Virus record (IMG/VR): IMGVR_UViG_648276671_000016
DNA length: 18,138 nt
Source of the DNA: a virus
Lineage: Duplodnaviria; Heunggongvirae; Uroviricota; Caudoviricetes
Direction: 5' to 3' (one strand)
The notes beneath the pieces are model-generated. The model did no database searches. It was not told the DNA's origin and was given only the letters and a program-made list of their open reading frames with translations. The position numbers and the translations under genes were made by a program. This document shows positions 1 through 7,109 of the stretch, piece by piece. Within the stretch, counting starts at the first letter, position 1. Each line of letters begins with the position of its first letter.

Positions 1-1143
1 CTATGCTGTTTTGATATCTACGATAACCCAGTCTTTACCACGATCATCATTGTATCGGTCGGTCATTTTTCTGGATTTATGGCCTAACAACTTTTGCGTA
101 TCCAGACCCTGTTCCCGATATAACCGTTCTGACAGAGATCGCTGCTCATGAAATGTGGGCGCAGTTCCTTGCTCCCATTTTATGCCACATTTTTCCCTGG
201 CCTTTTTAAAAGCCGTTGTCAGAGTATTTGCAGAAACCTGGTCTCCTCTGTTTGCTTGAGAGGTAGTGTGACGGTAATGGACCAGATATTTACTAACAAC
301 AGCATCCCTGCACTGAGATATAACTTCACGAAGGGTAATATTCAGAGCATCGCATTTCAGGTTAAGCGGAATAGCAAGTTTTGAACCGGTTTTTTCCTGA
401 GTAATGTGCAACATGTCGTCCCATATATCAGAGAATTTCAAATTGCAGATATCGCCTAAACGTTGTCCAGTGACAAGAGCAAGTAGCATCCCGCATTTTA
501 AATAGGGCTGCCGTCTGCTTACGCTGTCAAATATTGCCTGCCATTCGGGCAGTGATAATCTTTGGCGGTTTACTCGATTTCGCGGTTGTTTTGTTGCCTG
601 CGCTGGGTTAAATCCTGGCGGAACATGTCCTGCGTGTTGTGCTTCTTTGAAGACGTCGATTAACACCATTCTCACGACTTGCGCCATCCTGTTATGACCT
701 TCAGCCTTTACAGCATCAATTATTTCGGCAATATCAAGTGCGGTAATATCCTTGAGGTGTTGCATTCCACAATGCTCACGGAAAAGACGAATGGGTTTGC
801 CTTTTTGCCGATAGGAGTTGGGTCTTAGTTCATTATGTTGCAGCCTGTCCTCCTGGATAGAAATATATTTATCAAGCCATTCTGTCACCGTAATGTCTGA
901 GCGCCTGCCTTTCATTCTTTCCAGACGCTCATTGACGCTTAATATTTGTCGGGTACGTTGTTCAGCAATAATGGTATTTGCTTCAGTAGCAACTTGTTTT
1001 GCTTCATTCTCATCAGTTCCTAAGCTATGAAAACGACCGGATAGTGGATGTTTGTATTGCCAATATACCTTTCCGGTTCGCTTATCTAATTTGCAATATA
1101 AATTGGGTATAGAGATTTTGTGAGATCGGGGTCTAGCAGCCAT
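1..1143 (-). CDS. int: Tyrosine-type site-specific integrase (lambda-family phage integrase)
   Basis: 380-aa ORF. N-terminal RPRSH...PNLY and C-terminal HEQRSLSERLY / LLGHKS...MTDRYNDDRG parallel lambda Int (HELRSLSARLY, LLGHKSDTMASQYRDDRG) but the protein is clearly not lambda Int. Stop codon sits at nt 1-3; start overlaps xis by 11 nt. Confidence 0.9.
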   Translation of the reverse strand: MAARPRSHKISIPNLYCKLDKRTGKVYWQYKHPLSGRFHSLGTDENEAKQVATEANTIIAEQRTRQILSVNERLERMKGRRSDITVTEWLDKYISIQEDRLQHNELRPNSYRQKGKPIRLFREHCGMQHLKDITALDIAEIIDAVKAEGHNRMAQVVRMVLIDVFKEAQHAGHVPPGFNPAQATKQPRNRVNRQRLSLPEWQAIFDSVSRRQPYLKCGMLLALVTGQRLGDICNLKFSDIWDDMLHITQEKTGSKLAIPLNLKCDALNITLREVISQCRDAVVSKYLVHYRHTTSQANRGDQVSANTLTTAFKKAREKCGIKWEQGTAPTFHEQRSLSERLYREQGLDTQKLLGHKSRKMTDRYNDDRGKDWVIVDIKTA

Positions 1144-2596: not shown

Positions 2597-2757
2597 ACAG
2601 CCCCTCGTTTATTATTTATCTCCTCAGCCAGCCGCTGGGCTTTCAGTGGATTTTGGATAACAGAAAGGCCGGGAAATAGCCAGCCTCGCTTTGTAACGGA
2701 GTAGACGAAAGTGATCGCACCTACCCGGATATTATCGTGAGGATGCTTCATCGCCAT
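2569..2757 (-). CDS. Small exo-xis region protein (lambda orf60a-like)
   Basis: 62-aa ORF ([26 protein letters not shown]...) starting 10 nt inside the 3' end of exo. Matches my recollection of lambda orf60a. Confidence 0.55.
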
Positions 2758-3428
2758 TGCTCCCCAAATACAAAACCAATTTCAGCCAGTGCCTCGTCCA
2801 TTTTTTCGATGAACTCCGGCACCATCTCGTCAAAACTCGCCATGTAATTTTCATCCCGCTCAACCACGACATAATGCAGGCCTTCACGCTTCATTCGTGG
2901 GTCATAGTTGGCAAAGTACCAGGCATCTTTTCGTGTCACCCACATGCTGTACTGCACCTGGGCCATGTAAGCCGACTTTATGGCCTCGAAACCACCGAGC
3001 CGGAACTTCATGAAATCCCTGGAGGTAAACGGGCATTTCAGCTCAAGGCCATTGCCGTCACTGCATAAACCATCTGGAGAGCAGGCGGTACGCATACTTT
3101 CGTCGCGATAGATGATCGGGGATTCAATAACATTCACGCCGGAAGTGAACTCAAACAGGGTTCTGGCGTCGTTCTCGTACTGTTTTCCCCAGGCCAGTGC
3201 TTTAGCGTTAACTTCCGGAGCCACACCGGTGCAAACCTCGGCAAGCAGGGTGTGGAAGTAGGACATTTTCATGTCAGGCCACTTCTTTCCGGAGCGGGGT
3301 TTTGCTATCACGTTGTGAACTTCTGAAGCGGTGATGACGCCGAGCCGTAATTTGTGCCACGCATCATCCCCCTGTTCGACAGCTCTCACATCGATCCCGG
3401 TACGCTGCAGGATAATGTCCGGTGTCAT
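2748..3428 (-). CDS. exo: Lambda-type 5'-3' exonuclease (Red alpha)
   Basis: 226-aa translation ([40 protein letters not shown]...GEQWR) matches phage lambda Exo over its full length from memory. ATGA overlap with bet stop. Confidence 0.95.
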
Positions 3429-4210
3429 GCTGCCACCTTCTGCTCTGCGGCTTTCTGTTTCAGGAATCCAAGAGCTTTTACTGCTTCGGCCTGTGTCAGT
3501 TCTGACGATGCACGAATGTCGCGGCGAAATATCTGGGAACAGAGTGGCAATAAGTCGTCATCCCATGTTTTATCCAGGGCGATCAGCAGAGTGTTAATCT
3601 CCTGCATGGTTTCATCGTTAACCGGAGTGATGTCGCGTTCCGGCTGGCGTTCTGCAGTGTATGCAGTATTTTCGACAATGCGCTCGGCTTCATCCTTGTC
3701 ATAGATACCAGCAAATCCGAAGGCCAGACGGGCACACTGAATCATGGCTTTATGCCGTAACATTCGTTTGGGATGCGACTGCCACGGCCCCGTGATTTCT
3801 CTGCCTTCGCGGGTTTTGAATGGTTCGCGGCGGCATTCATCCATCCATTCGGTAACGCAGATCGGATGATTACGGTCCTTGCGGTAAATCCGGCATGTAC
3901 AGGATTCATTGTCCTGCTCAAAGTCCATGCCATCAAACTGCTGGTTTTCATTGATGATGCGGGACCAGCCATCAACGCCCACCACCGGAACGATGCCGTT
4001 CTGCTTATCAGGGAAGGCGTAAATTTCTTTCGTCCACGGATTAAGGCCGTATTGGTTGGCGACGATCAGCAATGCGATGAACTGCGCATCGCTGGCATCA
4101 CCTTTAAATGCCGTCTGGCGAAGAGTGGTGATCAGTTCCTGTGGGTCGACAGAATCCATGCCGACACGTTCAGCCAGCTTCCCTGCCAGCGTTGCGAGTG
4201 CTGTACTCAT
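3425..4210 (-). CDS. bet: Lambda-type single-strand annealing protein (Red beta)
   Basis: 261-aa translation ([66 protein letters not shown]...) matches lambda Bet end to end from memory. Confidence 0.95.
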
Positions 4211-4215
4211 CCGTT

Positions 4216-4512
4216 TTATACCTCTGAATCAATATCAACCTGGTGGTGAGCAATGGTTTCAACCATGTACCGGATGTGTTCTGCCATGCGCTCCTGAAAC
4301 TCAACATCGTCATCAAACGCACGGGTAATGGCTTTTTTGCTGGCCCCGTGGCGTTGCAAATGATCGATGCATAGCGATTCAAACAGGTGCTGGGGCAGGC
4401 CTTTTTCCATGTCGTCTGCCAGTTCTGCCTCTTTCTCTTCACGGGCGATCTGCTGGTAGTGACGCGCCCAGCTCTGAGCCTCAAGACGATCCTGAATGTA
4501 ATAAGCGTTCAT
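4216..4512 (-). CDS. gam: Gam, RecBCD inhibitor (short GamS-length form)
   Basis: 98-aa [24 protein letters not shown]...VDIDSEV corresponds to the lambda GamS portion. The in-frame upstream sequence has no start codon before a stop at 4567-4569. Confidence 0.9.
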
Positions 4513-4587: not shown

Positions 4588-4878
4588 TTAGCGATTCAGG
4601 CCGTTACCGCGTCCGTCGAGAAAAACTTCCACGAGCAAATCACGGGTATAAGTGCGCTCGATGCCGCGATGCAGATAAAGCCGTCCGCGTAAATTAGCTG
4701 ATGCAGTCCAGGTACCATCTTTGTGTTTGACCAGCATTCCTGGCATGACCGCACCTCGATTAACGGTCTGCGTTCCGTAATGTTGATGAACCATAAAAAC
4801 TCCTGCCCGTAAGCTGGGCTGCTGAACATATAGAGACTTCTGCGCGTATTCAGGCGGTGGATGGCCGCCGGTTGTCAT
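4588..4878 (-). CDS. Hypothetical protein, first gene downstream of the putative pL/OL region (N position)
   Basis: Open frame 4588-4998. The only ATG with an upstream GAGG is at 4878 (96 aa, [20 protein letters not shown]...). The 136-aa form begins at a TTG with no SD. Composition is Trp/Tyr/His/Val-containing and looks like a folded protein, unlike the disordered lambda N. Confidence 0.4.
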
Positions 4879-5035
4879 AACTAAGTCGCCTCGTTGAAGC
4901 GACTGAGGTATGAAGTGTTGAGTTGATTTCAGCTGGTCACACCGACGTTCACGCGTCCGCTTCACCCCTCGCACTCCCCGGAGCCTGCTGAAATTCAAGC
5001 TGCGGATCTAAGCGGTCATCGCAACGGTGAATCAG

Positions 5036-5150
5036 GTGGTTGCCGTATCGTTGTGTTGTTGCGATGAACTTATTTAAAACTATAGTTGTTTTATCGTCAA
5101 CAACAATAGTTGTTTTATTGGTTGTTTTAGATATAACTGGTTGTATTTAG
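5036..5150. promoter_or_regulatory. Putative OL operator cluster and leftward promoter
   Basis: Dense GTTGTT/AACAAC repeats, including the perfect inverted repeat AACAAC-AATA-GTTGTT at 5099-5114 and GTTGTT-N8-AACAAC at 5085-5104. Same half-site as the OR palindrome. A minus-strand -35 TTGACG (5095-5100) and -10 TTAAAT (5072-5077) are plausible. Confidence 0.45.
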
Positions 5151-5240
5151 GATGGATTTATTTTGTGACTTGAATCGCATAGCGATAACTGAAGCGAGGT
5201 TATGGTGGTTTTTTTAACGGTGTGTGTGATGAGGGGAGGG

Positions 5241-5268
5241 CAAAAGAAAACCCGGCACGGTGACCGGG
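5241..5268 (-). terminator. Intrinsic terminator downstream of the repressor gene
   Basis: Plus-strand CCCGG (5251-5255) and CCGGG (5264-5268) form a GC stem. On the minus strand it is followed by UUUUCUUUUG (plus 5241-5250). About 120 nt beyond the cI stop. Confidence 0.5.
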
Positions 5269-5389
5269 ATTCTTACGCCGTTAGGTAAAGATATTATTGC
5301 GGTGGCTTAATATTACTACCTAGAGCAAAGATAGGAATTAGTTCTTTACTGAATGAGCACAATGCCCAGTTGATAATTTTTAATTGGTA

Positions 5390-6079
5390 CTACCCATGCT
5401 TCCTATATGTCTGCGGCATGCTCCCAATAACCTTACCGAAGATGAACACCCGGTTCATCTCGTCTTTCTCGATCGGGTCCCACGGTGAGTAGCTTTTGTT
5501 ATCAGAGATGACCAGCAGCTTATCCTTCATCATTTGCAGGCGCTTTACATGGGCTGTGTCGTCGTACAGAAACGCATAGATACCATCACCGTCGAAAGAT
5601 TTAACTGTGATATCAACGAACAGCAGATCACCTGGTTCGATCGTTCCTGACATGCTGTCACCACGCACGTTAATGATGCGGATATTTTCCGCCTTCCTAC
5701 CATCGAACATGTGACGAGCATCGTCAAACGAGTACTCAACCGAGCGTAGAACTTCTACAAACTCACGGTTGATGACTCCCGGCCCAGCACTGACTTCTAT
5801 ATCAAGAACGTCAATCTTGAAGTATTTGGAATGGCTGACAGTTGATTGTATTGGTTGCACTGTACTGTCTGACATATTTCCAACGCCAGAAGATAACCAT
5901 TCTGCGCGCACACCCAAAGCGTTCGCGATCTCCACGATTTTAGTTGTTTGATTAGCTTTCCCTGTTTCGATTTTCTGAATAGCAGCTTGGCTAACCCCGA
6001 CCAAATCCCCAAGCGCCTTTTGTGTAAGGCCTCGCGCTAATCTGGCTTCTTTAAGTCTTTCTGAGAGTGTTGTTTTCAT
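5390..6079 (-). CDS. cI: CI-type prophage repressor (XRE HTH plus S24 LexA-like peptidase domain)
   Basis: N-terminal HTH (LSERLKEARLARGLTQKALGDLVGVSQAAIQKIETG). C-terminal autocleavage domain with Ser in VRGDSMSGTIEPGDLLFVD and Lys in HVKRL. I start at the internal Met at 6079; the 6145 ATG of the ORF track lies inside the operator palindrome. Confidence 0.85.
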   Translation of the reverse strand: MKTTLSERLKEARLARGLTQKALGDLVGVSQAAIQKIETGKANQTTKIVEIANALGVRAEWLSSGVGNMSDSTVQPIQSTVSHSKYFKIDVLDIEVSAGPGVINREFVEVLRSVEYSFDDARHMFDGRKAENIRIINVRGDSMSGTIEPGDLLFVDITVKSFDGDGIYAFLYDDTAHVKRLQMMKDKLLVISDNKSYSPWDPIEKDEMNRVFIFGKVIGSMPQTYRKHG

Positions 6080-6183
6080 AGTCCAAATGTACAACCAAGG
6101 TTTTATTCTATCAAACGAAAATGGTTGTTGACTAAAAACAACCATAGTTTTAATCTTGATTCAAATTAACCACGGAGGTTGTT
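6080..6183. promoter_or_regulatory. OR operator/promoter region between divergent repressor and cro
   Basis: 25-bp perfect palindrome ATGGTTGTT-GACTAAA-AACAACCAT at 6121-6145, overlapping a rightward -35 TTGACT (6128-6133). Further half-sites at 6069-6074, 6091-6096 and 6177-6183. Minus-strand TAGAAT (rc of 6106-6111) is a candidate -10 for the repressor promoter. Confidence 0.6.
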
Positions 6184-6414
6184 ATGAACCCAGCTATCAA
6201 AACAGCGATCAATATCGTTGGTTCACAAAAGAAACTGGGCGCTGCTTGCGAAGTTTCACAGCAGGCCGTCTATAAGTGGCTTCACAACAAAGCAAAGGTA
6301 TCCCCTGAACATGTCGGCAGCATTGTTACGGCTACTGGTGGAGTAGTGAAGGCATACCAGATTCGCCCGGATCTTCCGAAGTTGTTTCCACACACCGAAA
6401 AGAACGCAGCTTAA
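6184..6414 (+). CDS. cro: Cro-like small DNA-binding protein (YdaS/Cro family)
   Basis: 76-aa ORF divergent from the repressor with strong RBS (GGAGG). Sequence (QKKLGAACEVSQQAVYKWLHNK) is a compact HTH. Confidence 0.8.
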   Translation: MNPAIKTAINIVGSQKKLGAACEVSQQAVYKWLHNKAKVSPEHVGSIVTATGGVVKAYQIRPDLPKLFPHTEKNAA

Positions 6415-6426
6415 ATTTCCATTTCA

Positions 6427-6439
6427 CGCTCTTTAACAA
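6427..6439 (+). promoter_or_regulatory. boxA-like element (candidate nutR component)
   Basis: CGCTCTTTAACAA lies 13 nt after the cro stop, a near-perfect match to the boxA consensus (lambda CGCTCTTA; rrn TGCTCTTTAACAA). No convincing GC-rich boxB hairpin follows within 40 nt. Confidence 0.35.
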
Positions 6440-6483
6440 TAAGCAATCAACTTAACAGTCAATTCAAACTAAAGGAGTCAATT

Positions 6484-7023
6484 ATGCAACCACTTACATA
6501 CCAACAGACTAGCGGATTTAGCCCGACTGCGGTGATAAATCGTTCTCAAACAAAACAGGTGCCAGGCCACGAAAAAATCCGTGATGTCGTCCGCGCTTGG
6601 TCGGCTGAAGATAATCAGGATGTCGTTGCCACACTCATTGTGAATGAGTATCGGGAGCAGGGCGGCGGCACCATCGATTTCCCTGATGATGTCAGCCGTG
6701 CACGCCAGAAGCTGTTCCGCTTCCTCGATAACAAATTCGATTCTGAAAAATACCGAAATAACGTGCGTGAACTGACCCCGGCAATTCTGGCGGTACTACC
6801 GCTGGAATATCGCGGCCACCTGGTTGAGCAGGATAGCTTCATGGCTCGGCTGGCTGAAATGGAAAAGGAACTCAGTGAGGCAAAACAGGCTGTCATTCTC
6901 AACGCACCACGCCACCAGAAACTGAAGGAGATGAGTGAAGGCATTGTGTCGATGTTTCGTGTGGACCCAGATCTGGCTGGTCCATTGATGGCGATGGTTA
7001 CTACCATGCTGGGGGCGATATGA
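6484..7023 (+). CDS. ydaT: YdaT-family protein (Rac-prophage YdaT-like; proposed CII functional analogue)
   Basis: 179-aa ORF with RBS AAGGAG. Motifs EYREQGGGTIDFP and LTPAILAVLPLEYRGHL resemble E. coli Rac YdaT (EYLRQGGGELP, LIPAILAILPRELRHRL). Sits in the cII position. Confidence 0.75.
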   Translation: MQPLTYQQTSGFSPTAVINRSQTKQVPGHEKIRDVVRAWSAEDNQDVVATLIVNEYREQGGGTIDFPDDVSRARQKLFRFLDNKFDSEKYRNNVRELTPAILAVLPLEYRGHLVEQDSFMARLAEMEKELSEAKQAVILNAPRHQKLKEMSEGIVSMFRVDPDLAGPLMAMVTTMLGAI

Positions 7024-7109
7024 CAGGTTCAGAAATGGCGAAAGCCGGTCTGCTGGAACAGAACCGACTTTCAGGTGCAAATCGTAACACACTCATTGCG
7101 GGAGGAATT

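What the first reader, a model, noticed from the sequence alone, without database searches (positions are those of the whole stretch)
5036..6183. Rac-type immunity logic (CI/Cro-like/YdaT) with GTTGTT/AACAAC operators on a lambda-type replication backbone
The repressor is flanked on both sides by operators built from the same half-site: a 25-bp perfect palindrome ATGGTTGTTGACTAAAAACAACCAT in OR overlapping a rightward -35, and multiple overlapping inverted repeats in the left cluster. No rex-like genes lie downstream of the repressor. The protein in the cII position is YdaT-like rather than CII. This combination next to lambda O/P indicates recombination between Rac-like and lambda-like lineages.
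Basis: partly seen in the sequence, partly recalled or inferred. Interest (0 to 1): 0.4.

Follow-up and report, generated by a model that had tools for sequence, protein, structure and literature searches.

The report
Ordinary lambdoid prophage immunity switch

Summary
The sequence features are real. GTTGTT/AACAAC half-sites cluster on both sides of a CI repressor gene. No rex-type genes follow it. A YdaT-family gene sits in the cII position, next to lambda-type O/P genes.

The interpretation needs correcting in three places.

1. The "25-bp perfect palindrome" is 9-bp arms around a non-palindromic 7-bp spacer. It arises where two neighbouring operators meet. The conserved unit is a 14-mer, ACAAC-N4-GTTGT, like the phage 434 operator. 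There are three in OR and two in OL, plus one lone half-site. Their centres lie 18.5, 42.5 and 65.5 bp from the cI ATG, against 19, 42 and 66 in lambda. Across four diverged loci, 0 of 50 outer operator positions vary, against 62 of 125 other intergenic positions.

2. The repressor is not RacR-like (E = 2.3). It is a 434-like HTH fused to an S24 autocleavage domain.

3. The "YdaT" is 66% identical over its full length to phage phi80 cII, against 38% to Rac YdaT. It is inherited with O/P, not with cI/cro.

The region is about 99% identical to isolated phages and is found in 2226 of 5426 complete E. coli genomes, so it is ordinary.

One side observation may be worth following. A perfect YdaT box overlaps a conserved promoter upstream of the nin/Q genes.

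The parts
4588..4998 (-). kil-like gene, the first ORF of the leftward (PL) operon. The true start is probably internal. No N-like gene lies between PL and kil.
   Evidence: PHROG phrog_294 Kil at 1.8e-38 over residues 60-135. It is annotated Kil in PhiR47_2.
5071..5100 (-). Predicted PL. The -35 is TTGACG (5100..5095). The -10 is TTAAAT or TAAATA (5077..5071), giving a 17- or 18-bp spacer.
   Evidence: Read from the sequence. It has the same layout as PR, and TTGAC and GTTTTAAAT are conserved in relatives. The consensus scan did not call it, so this is an inference.
5076..5089 (-). OL1. On the minus strand it reads ACAACTATAGTTTT and lies between the PL -35 and -10.
   Evidence: The outer pentamers are invariant in 4 loci.
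5100..5113 (.). OL2, ACAACAATAGTTGT, the best match (10/10 outer positions). It lies 24 bp from OL1 and overlaps the PL -35 by 1 bp.
   Evidence: The central N4 varies among relatives (AATA, AAAA, TATT, CATT) while the outer pentamers stay fixed.
5138..5144 (-). Conserved lone half-site ACAACCA, a candidate weak OL3. It lies 31 bp from the OL2 centre, and its partner half does not match.
   Evidence: Invariant in all 4 aligned loci and listed.
5241..5268 (-). Intrinsic terminator after cI. It occupies the otherwise empty rex/moron slot.
   Evidence: Relatives carry 1.4-kb inserts here, for example GevT/GevA in PhiR47_2, or two ORFs in L006 and PhiR68_2.
5390..6079 (-). cI repressor, 229 aa. 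It has a 434-like HTH N-terminal domain and a Peptidase_S24 C-terminal domain, with Ala98-Gly99, Ser142 and Lys179.
   Evidence: Pfam HTH_3 5.4e-13 and S24 1.2e-18. It matches the 434 repressor at E 4.5e-9. The cleavage and catalytic residues align with those of lambda CI.
6086..6114 (-). Predicted PRM, TTGATA-17-TACATT. The transcript would start at about the A of the cI ATG, so the mRNA would be leaderless.
   Evidence: Promoter scan. There is no Shine-Dalgarno sequence before the ATG.
6091..6104 (+). OR3, ACAACCAAGGTTTT. It overlaps the PRM -10 and spacer. Its centre is 18.5 bp from the cI ATG.
6115..6128 (-). OR2. On the minus strand it reads ACAACCATTTTCGT. It abuts the PRM -35 and touches the PR -35. 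Its centre is 42.5 bp from the cI ATG.
   Evidence: Lambda OR2 is at +42.
6138..6151 (+). OR1, ACAACCATAGTTTT. It lies between the PR -35 and -10. Its centre is 65.5 bp from the cI ATG.
   Evidence: Lambda OR1 is at +66.
6121..6145 (.). It is the strong halves of OR2 and OR1 facing each other across the PR -35.
   Evidence: One search shows 9+7+9 bp. The right arm is not conserved, and the left cluster has no equivalent spacing.
6128..6156 (+). Predicted PR, TTGACT-17-TAATCT.
   Evidence: Read from the sequence. The -35 is conserved, and the -10 is TA(A/T)TCT in relatives. The consensus scan did not list it.
6184..6414 (+). cro, 76 aa, of the YdaS / P22-Cro-like all-alpha HTH family.
   Evidence: Pfam YdaS_toxin 4.1e-17 and P22_Cro 8e-5. 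PDB 3bd1 Cro at E 7e-4. It is 30% identical to Rac YdaS.
6484..7023 (+). phi80-type cII (YdaT family), 179 aa.
   Evidence: Pfam YdaT_toxin 7.7e-30. PHROG 163, CII-like activator, 7.5e-67. It is 65.6% identical to phi80 cII, 38% to Rac YdaT, and matches 8bt1 at E 0.003.
7020..8737 (+). O (probable true start at 7110; iterons at 7461-7573) and P replication genes.
6156..6173 (.). Weak YdaT-box-like site, TTGATTCAAATTAACCAC (2 mismatches), in the PR leader.
   Evidence: It is not significant on its own. PhiR68_2 has a 1-mismatch box over its cro start. Relatives with lambda-type CII have TTTGTT here.
13895..13923 (+). Perfect YdaT box, TTGATTATGAATAATCAA, overlapping the -35 and spacer of a conserved promoter (-10 CATAAT) upstream of ybcN/ninB...Q.

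Best explanation
This is the immunity (lysis/lysogeny) switch of a lambdoid, DLP12/lambda-like E. coli prophage, and it is wired like lambda's.

Repressor: the 229-aa CI has a 434-like helix-turn-helix domain and a LexA-type S24 self-cleavage domain. It binds as dimers to 14-bp operators of consensus ACAAC-N4-GTTGT.

Right operator: OR1 (6138-6151) and OR2 (6115-6128) cover PR. OR2, centred 42.5 bp from the cI start, is placed to activate PRM as in lambda. OR3 (6091-6104) covers PRM for negative autoregulation. cI is probably translated from a leaderless PRM transcript.

Left operator: OL1 (5076-5089) and OL2 (5100-5113) cover PL, which drives kil-gam-bet-exo.

Other regulators: Cro, a YdaS/P22-Cro-type HTH protein, is expected to use the same operators with the opposite preference. 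The 179-aa YdaT-family protein is the phi80-type CII, the establishment regulator. SOS-activated RecA would trigger CI autocleavage at Ala98-Gly99 and so induce the prophage.

Status of each step: the gene families, motifs, spacing, conservation and module exchange are shown here. Binding, cooperativity, PRM activation, the order in which Cro fills the operators, and what YdaT does are inferred by analogy with lambda, 434, CP-933P and Rac.
For: Families: Pfam and PHROG assignments. The CI N-terminal domain matches the 434 repressor at E 4.5e-9, and I counted about 38% identity (24 of 64 aligned residues) from that alignment. The Ala-Gly, Ser and Lys residues align with those of lambda CI.

Operators: the five best 14-mer matches in 18 kb all lie in the two clusters. 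Within each cluster the spacing is 24 or 23 bp.

Geometry: the operator centres lie at +18.5, +42.5 and +65.5 from the cI ATG, against +19, +42 and +66 for the annotated lambda operators.

Phylogenetic footprint: four loci keep the recognition helix GVSQAAIQKIETG(K/R)A but have diverged spacers. In them 0 of 50 outer operator positions vary, against 62 of 125 other intergenic positions (Fisher 2e-12). The central N4 varies at 9 of 20 positions.

Promoters: PRM was found by the scan. PR and PL were read from the sequence and are conserved.

The region works in real phages: it is about 99% identical in inducible phages such as PhiR34_1, PhiR47_2, IdasGreatGrand and Turner, and it occurs in 2226 of 5426 complete E. 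coli genomes.

Literature: YdaS as Cro and YdaT as a CII analogue, homologous to phi80 CII, are described in PMC5917428, PMC8630535 and PMC9986795.
Against: There is no binding or transcription data for this immunity type.

OL has only two full 14-mers plus one lone conserved half-site, so a lambda-like three-part OL is not shown.

OR2 matches only 8 of 10 outer positions.

Two of the three base-contacting residues of the 434 recognition helix differ here (Q29A, Q33K), yet the operator keeps ACAA. The 434 analogy is therefore structural, not a proof of how the bases are read.

The consensus promoter scan did not call PR or PL.

No significant YdaT box or PRE-like promoter was found between cro and the YdaT gene. 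How this CII analogue turns on cI is unknown.
Confidence: 0.8

Rival explanations
1. The operator is the long inverted repeat ATGGTTGTT-N7-AACAACCAT, bound by one CI dimer over the PR -35, and the left cluster holds related long repeats.
For: The 9-bp arms are perfectly complementary. The repeat overlaps the PR -35. The GTTGTT half-site is enriched on both sides of cI.
Against: Only one such site exists, and none lies in OL even with 3 mismatches allowed.

The equivalent facing half-sites in OL are 1 bp further apart: the operator centres are 24 bp apart there and 23 bp in OR.

In Klebsiella relatives with the same recognition helix the right arm becomes TTAGTTGTA, and only GTTGT is kept.

The half-site centres are 14 bp apart. 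That does not suit a 434-type HTH dimer, whose operators are 14 bp overall (my recollection of the 434 repressor-operator structures, PDB 2or1 and 1rpe).
Confidence: 0.08
2. The region is a recombinant between a Rac-like prophage, which gave the racR/ydaS/ydaT-type immunity, and a lambda-like phage, which gave O/P.
For: The Cro and CII-position proteins fall in the Pfam YdaS and YdaT families. They are 30% and 38% identical to the Rac proteins. P is 97% identical to lambda P.
Against: CI is unrelated to RacR. RacR is 158 aa against 229 aa here; I did not scan RacR itself for an S24 domain.

The Rac intergenic sequence has different repeats.

The YdaT gene is far closer to phi80, mEp237, HK225 and HK639 cII, at 51-66% over the full length.

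The mosaic joint lies between cro and the YdaT gene. YdaT (96% identical) is found next to annotated O and P replication genes in PhiR68_2, which has a different CI N-terminal domain and a different upstream region.

The same CI N-terminal domain and Cro pair occur next to a lambda-type CII gene elsewhere.
Confidence: 0.07
3. The 6121-6145 repeat acts as a hairpin, either as a bidirectional transcription terminator or as a cruciform, rather than as protein-binding DNA.
For: The terminator scan flags it on both strands, with a 9-bp stem followed by a T-rich tail.
Against: It sits between two divergent promoters, upstream of both start points, so no transcript is expected to cross it.

Only 3 of the 9 stem pairs are G-C.

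The arm symmetry is lost in relatives.
Confidence: 0.02

Closest known systems
Phage lambda immunity region (cI-OR-cro-cII, OL/PL, O/P)
   Same: The gene order is the same, with divergent PRM and PR. OR has three operators at almost identical distances from the cI start: 18.5/42.5/65.5 bp here and 19/42/66 bp in lambda. Operator spacing of 23-24 bp is shared. cI is probably leaderless in both. CI has an S24 autocleavage domain. P is 97% identical, and the C-terminal half of O is nearly identical.
   Different: CI is only 23% identical to lambda CI. The operators are 14-mers, not 17-mers. Cro and CII belong to other families. There is no rexAB, and no N gene lies between PL and kil. The N-terminal domain of O and the origin iterons differ.
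Phage 434 repressor and its 14-bp operators (ACAA-N6-TTGT)
   Same: The CI N-terminal domain is the closest solved relative (E 4.5e-9). The operators are 14 bp with conserved outer bases and a free centre. ACAAC-N4-GTTGT fits within ACAA-N6-TTGT.
   Different: The recognition helix is QAAIQK here and QQSIEQ in 434. The fifth base is a fixed C. The spacers between operators are longer, so the centres are 23-24 bp apart. Cross-immunity was not tested.
Phage phi80 early region (cI, gene 30 Cro-like, cII, genes 15/14)
   Same: The cII-position protein is 65.6% identical over the full length, and its recognition helix SRARQKLFRFLDN is identical. The same box, promoter and leader lie upstream of the ninB/ybcN homologue.
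   Different: CI is only 24% identical. Cro similarity is marginal: 12 of 26 residues over a 26-aa stretch, E 0.003. The phi80 operators are annotated as 19-mers. No M3/oop-like RNA was recognised by eye after cII here.
CP-933P (PaaR2-YdaS-YdaT) and Rac (RacR-YdaS-YdaT) immunity regions
   Same: A YdaS-family Cro and a YdaT-family CII analogue are transcribed divergently from the repressor. OR and OL operators share one motif. The repressor gene is leaderless in CP-933P (PMC8630535, PMC9986795, PMC11879457).
   Different: The repressor here is a cleavable CI, not RacR. No toxin-antitoxin genes follow the repressor. YdaT similarity is low: E 0.003 to 8bt1 and 38% to Rac. The operator motif differs from the GTTTAGTAA repeats of CP-933P (PMC8630535). 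No strong YdaT box lies between cro and ydaT.
Sequenced phages PhiR34_1, PhiR47_2, PhiR26_1, PhiR5_1, IdasGreatGrand and Turner
   Same: They carry the same immunity region at 97-99.5% nucleotide identity, annotated as cI, Cro, cII and O.
   Different: They differ only in the cargo in the rex slot (GevT/GevA in PhiR47_2) and in the genes between P and the nin region.

Membership tests
Lambda/434-type cleavable CI repressor (HTH + Peptidase S24) | N-terminal Cro/C1-type helix-turn-helix domain | tested here: met
   Pfam HTH_3 5.4e-13 over residues 9-62. It matches the 434 repressor at E 4.5e-9.
Lambda/434-type cleavable CI repressor (HTH + Peptidase S24) | C-terminal S24 domain with an Ala-Gly cleavage site and a Ser/Lys dyad | tested here: met
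   Pfam Peptidase_S24 1.2e-18. A98-G99, S142 (GDSM) and K179 (VKRL) align with lambda A111-G112, S149 and K192.
Lambda/434-type cleavable CI repressor (HTH + Peptidase S24) | Repeated dyad operators overlapping divergent PR/PRM and a distant PL | tested here: met
   There are five 14-mers in two clusters, 23-24 bp apart. The outer positions are invariant in 4 loci.
Lambda/434-type cleavable CI repressor (HTH + Peptidase S24) | Operator binding and RecA-stimulated autocleavage | not testable with these tools
   This needs purified protein or genetics.
Rac-type immunity (RacR-YdaS-YdaT) | Repressor homologous to RacR | tested here: not met
   BLASTP E = 2.3 with no alignment.
Rac-type immunity (RacR-YdaS-YdaT) | YdaS-family Cro and YdaT-family protein downstream of PR | tested here: met
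   PF15943 4.1e-17 and PF06254 7.7e-30. They are 30% and 38% identical to the Rac proteins.
Rac-type immunity (RacR-YdaS-YdaT) | The three genes inherited as one module | tested here: not met
   The same CI N-terminal domain and Cro occur with a Phage_CII gene. The same YdaT, next to annotated O and P genes, occurs with a different CI N-terminal domain and a different cro-side region.
phi80-type CII (YdaT family) | Full-length homology to phi80 cII and a position between cro and the O-like gene | tested here: met
   65.6% identity over 179 aa, with an identical recognition helix. PHROG 163 at 7.5e-67.
phi80-type CII (YdaT family) | A cognate [T/A]TGATT-N6-AATCAA box near the cro/ydaT junction, as in Rac and CP-933P | tested here: inconclusive
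   There are only 2- and 3-mismatch sites at 6156-6173 and 6433-6450. The window holds 20 such matches against 15 expected. A perfect box lies 7.4 kb away at 13895-13912.
phi80-type CII (YdaT family) | Tetrameric DNA binding and activation of a leftward PRE-like promoter | not testable with these tools
   No PRE-like promoter could be recognised by eye in the 6415-6483 sequence, and the repeat search found no inverted repeat there.
434-type operator | A 14-bp dyad with conserved outer 4-5 bp and a variable, uncontacted centre | tested here: met
   Outer positions vary at 0 of 50 and central positions at 9 of 20. OL2 has the centres AATA, AAAA, TATT and CATT in four loci.
Lambda O/P replication module | An O initiator with iterons inside its gene, and a P helicase loader | tested here: met
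   Pfam assignments. P is 97% identical to lambda P and O is 67% identical overall. Tandem iterons lie at 7461-7573.

The most novel reading that the evidence does not exclude
The phi80-type (YdaT-family) CII has a second, undescribed target: a dyad operator, TTGATT-N6-AATCAA, built into the -35 and spacer of a conserved promoter upstream of a structured leader and the ybcN/ninB-ninE-rusA-Q genes (window 13895-14060).

Binding there would let the establishment regulator control transcription into the Q (late-gene activator) region directly. That would be the functional counterpart of lambda CII acting at PaQ.

The box equals the footprinted YdaT boxes of Rac and CP-933P. It is kept in 117 of 120 sampled phage loci, with 27 different spacers.

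The protein that binds it is unproven. Four loci with a lambda-type CII also keep a near-box.
Probability: 0.3. Interest if true: 0.5.

Novelty: new member of a known kind. Interest (0 to 1): 0.2.

Why it matters
The finding itself matters little. It is a textbook lambdoid switch that is already present and annotated in isolated phages and in about 40% of complete E. coli genomes.

The useful outputs are practical:
- An operator and promoter map for a very common E. coli immunity type. The map can be tested directly and can be used to predict which of the many co-resident prophages share immunity.
- A correction of database labels. The proteins annotated "toxin YdaT" and "YdaS toxin" here are the CII and Cro analogues.
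- A clear example of module exchange at two levels. One joint lies between cro and cII. Another lies inside cI, between the DNA-binding and cleavage domains.

The side observation, a conserved YdaT-box promoter upstream of the nin/Q region, could widen the known regulon of YdaT-type CII proteins if it is confirmed.

Tried and rejected
- CI homologues at 72-82% identity (PhiR68_2, Salmonella S149, Klebsiella phage 6) were fetched for phylogenetic footprinting. They share only the C-terminal domain and have a different N-terminal domain and different operators. I used them as evidence of domain swapping instead.
- An Rfam search of the whole window, and a permissive search of 13850-14110, found nothing.
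- A 10-bp-stem hairpin in the PL leader (5016-5067) is not significant (z -1.6). It also did not look conserved in L007 when I read the alignment by eye.
- The search for a YdaT box or an inverted repeat between cro and ydaT found only a direct repeat, AGTCAATT twice, 19 bp apart, and non-significant near-matches.
- A 14-mer-like site inside cI (5934-5947) lies in codons for conserved residues and is not kept as an operator in L006, so I treated it as chance.
- A 9/10 match over the cro ribosome-binding site (6169-6182) is conserved, but translation signals explain that equally well. It is left open.
- A literature search for GevT/GevA returned only unrelated papers.
- The region after cII (7024-7110) shows no similarity by eye to the phi80 or HK639 M3/oop-like RNA.
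- The terminator reading of the 25-bp repeat was rejected because of where it sits.
Full report
WHAT IS THERE

The window is the early region of a lambdoid prophage. From left to right it holds:
- integrase (1-1143, minus strand)
- exo, bet and gam (2748-4512, minus strand)
- a kil-like gene (4588-4998, minus strand)
- the left operator cluster
- a terminator
- cI (5390-6079, minus strand)
- a 104-bp control region
- cro (6184-6414)
- a YdaT-family gene (6484-7023)
- O and P (7020-8737)
- cargo genes, then the nin region and Q

The stretch 4950-7100 is 99.2% identical to phage PhiR34_1 and 97-99.5% identical to several other isolated phages that annotate cI, Cro, cII and O there. It matches 2226 of 5426 complete E. 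coli genomes, and 1243 of them hold at least 80% of it.

CHECKING THE OBSERVATION

The half-site enrichment is real. GTTGTT occurs 27 times against 12.5 expected, with five copies in 5055-5126 and four in 6069-6183.

The "25-bp perfect palindrome" is really 9-bp arms (6121-6129 and 6137-6145) around a non-palindromic 7-bp spacer. It overlaps the PR -35, TTGACT at 6128-6133.

The stretch between OL and cI holds no gene, only an intrinsic terminator. Relatives carry inserts there, for example the GevT/GevA pair in PhiR47_2.

P is 97% identical to lambda P. The C-terminal half of O is nearly identical to lambda O, while its N-terminal half and its iterons (7461-7573) differ.

THE OPERATORS

The CI N-terminal domain is most like the phage 434 repressor (E 4.5e-9). 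I counted about 38% identity over 64 residues from that alignment. 434 operators are 14-mers of the form ACAA-N6-TTGT. That is established knowledge which I recalled, not something tested here.

Scanning for ACAAC-N4-GTTGT gives five top sites, all in the two clusters:
- OR3, 6091-6104
- OR2, 6115-6128
- OR1, 6138-6151
- OL1, 5076-5089
- OL2, 5100-5113

Neighbouring sites lie 24 or 23 bp apart. Measured from the cI ATG, the OR centres are at 18.5, 42.5 and 65.5 bp. The annotated lambda operators are at 19, 42 and 66 bp.

O1 sits between the -35 and -10 of PR and of PL. O2 touches the -35. OR3 covers the predicted PRM (TTGATA-17-TACATT). The PRM start point falls on the A of the cI ATG, so the transcript would be leaderless as in lambda and CP-933P (PMC8630535).

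PHYLOGENETIC TEST OF THE OPERATOR MODEL

I searched with the N-terminal domain alone and recovered homologues that keep the recognition helix GVSQAAIQKIETG(K/R)A but come from Klebsiella and from metagenomes. Their cI-cro spacer is also 104 bp.

In four diverged loci, 0 of 50 outer operator positions vary, against 62 of 125 other intergenic positions (Fisher 2e-12). The central N4 varies at 9 of 20 positions.

The long GGTTGTT-N7-AACAACC site has no counterpart in OL. The palindrome is therefore the meeting of the strong halves of OR2 and OR1, not the unit that is recognised.

OL has only two full sites, plus a conserved lone half-site at 5138-5144.

THE PROTEINS AND THE 'RAC-TYPE' LABEL

CI has no detectable similarity to RacR (E 2.3). 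It carries a complete S24 domain with the Ala-Gly site and the Ser/Lys dyad.

Cro is in the YdaS/P22-Cro family and is 30% identical to Rac YdaS.

The YdaT-family protein is 38% identical to Rac YdaT over its DNA-binding domain. It is 65.6% identical over all 179 residues to phage phi80 cII, with an identical recognition helix. It is 51-66% identical to the cII genes of mEp237, HK225 and HK639.

It is already published that YdaS and YdaT are the Cro and CII analogues, and that YdaT is homologous to phi80 CII (PMC5917428, PMC8630535, PMC9986795).

MODULARITY

- The same CI N-terminal domain and Cro sit next to a lambda-type Phage_CII gene in other loci.
- The same YdaT gene (96% identical), next to annotated O and P replication genes, sits next to a different CI N-terminal domain and a different cro-side region in PhiR68_2. 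The upstream sequence changes right at the YdaT start codon.
- cI itself is a chimera. Its C-terminal domain is identical to that of PhiR68_2, while the N-terminal domain differs.

The region is therefore mosaic, as lambdoid phages usually are, but it is not a Rac-by-lambda cross.

HOW IT MOST LIKELY WORKS

- CI dimers fill OR1/OR2 and OL1/OL2 and shut off PR and PL.
- CI at OR2 helps PRM, and OR3 limits it.
- RecA-stimulated self-cleavage lifts repression.
- Cro uses the same sites to shut off PRM.
- The phi80-type CII promotes establishment of lysogeny.

Only the sequence anatomy and its conservation are shown here. The activities are inferred from lambda, 434, CP-933P and Rac.

I could not locate a PRE-like promoter or a significant YdaT box between cro and the YdaT gene.

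SIDE OBSERVATION

A perfect copy of the footprinted YdaT box, TTGATT-N6-AATCAA (PMC9986795, PMC11879457), lies at 13895-13912. It overlaps the -35 and spacer of a promoter with -10 CATAAT. That promoter was already annotated as putative in phage 82.

Downstream of it comes a structured leader. Its minimum free energy has z = -4.5, and its first hairpin has covarying pairs. The ybcN/ninB...Q genes follow.

Phage 82, PhiR34_1, HK639 and CobraSix have perfect boxes with other spacers. phi80 and HK225 have the symmetric variant TTGATA-N6-TATCAA.

Of 120 phage loci anchored on the leader, 117 keep the box at a fixed offset, with 27 different spacers. The in-spacer ATCA is kept in 75-78 of 78 distinct contexts.

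Where the cII type could be seen upstream, 38 loci had the YdaT type (22 with perfect boxes) and 4 had the lambda type (none perfect).

Rac and CP-933P YdaT are only 30% identical yet bind each other's boxes (PMC11879457). The YdaT-type CII is therefore the best candidate binder, but this is not shown.

VERDICT

The region is an ordinary and very common member of a known kind of switch.

Noticed in passing
window 13895-13923: A perfect YdaT box, TTGATTATGAATAATCAA, overlaps the -35 and spacer of a conserved promoter (-10 CATAAT) upstream of ybcN/ninB...Q. It is kept in 117 of 120 sampled phage loci with 27 different spacers, and most of those loci are linked to a YdaT/phi80-type cII.
   Followed up: partly
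window 13929-14056: A structured leader or possible small RNA follows that promoter. It folds into three hairpins (MFE -41.5 kcal/mol, z -4.5). The first hairpin has 5 of 6 covarying pairs and a conserved loop, CCUGAACAA. It has no Rfam family. Phage 82's record calls the hairpin a 'possible regulator-binding site'.
   Followed up: partly
window 9081-13629: A cargo island lies between P and the nin region. It holds a 1157-aa inverse autotransporter (intimin/invasin-like: IAT_beta plus five Big_1 domains) and, on the other strand, a 346-aa BD-FAE / alpha-beta hydrolase esterase. PhiR34_1 carries emrE-ybcK-ybcL-ybcM at the same place.
   Followed up: partly
window 5150-5390; L012 826-2254: The rex/moron slot between OL and cI is empty here and holds only a terminator. 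Relatives carry different cargo there: GevT/GevA toxin-antitoxin in PhiR47_2, and two unknown ORFs in PhiR68_2 and in the Klebsiella locus L006.
   Followed up: partly
window 5390-6079 vs L003, L004, L005: cI is a domain chimera. Residues from about 85 to 229 are 100% identical to PhiR68_2 CI, and residues from about 97 onward are more than 90% identical to the Salmonella and Klebsiella phage CIs. Those proteins have a different DNA-binding domain and different operators.
   Followed up: yes
window 4998-5075: No N-like antiterminator gene lies between PL and kil. The PL leader can form a hairpin with a 10-bp stem (5016-5025 / 5058-5067), but it is not significant (z -1.6) and did not look conserved. 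How early-left antitermination works here is unclear.
   Followed up: partly
window 6169-6182 and 5934-5947: There are two further operator-like 14-mers. One lies over the cro ribosome-binding site (ACCACGGAGGTTGT, 9/10, conserved in relatives, 31 bp from the OR1 centre). The other lies inside cI (8/10, not conserved as a site). Both may be chance or explained by coding or translation signals.
   Followed up: partly
window 7020-7110 and 7461-7573: The O reading frame is probably annotated 30 codons too long, because similarity to lambda O starts at Met31 (7110). The origin iterons (consensus TTTACCCGAATCAGGTAAA) differ from lambda's, which matches the diverged N-terminal half of O.
   Followed up: partly
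window 16414-17157: An AraC-family regulator gene (HTH_AraC / HTH_18) lies just downstream of Q, where the late promoter region is expected. It is a possible prophage-borne host regulator.
   Followed up: no
L002 6119-6136 (Rac, K-12): Rac carries a perfectly symmetric near-box, CTGATTCGCGTAAATCAG, inside ydaW, downstream of its replication genes. It might be a remnant of the same nin-region operator.
   Followed up: no
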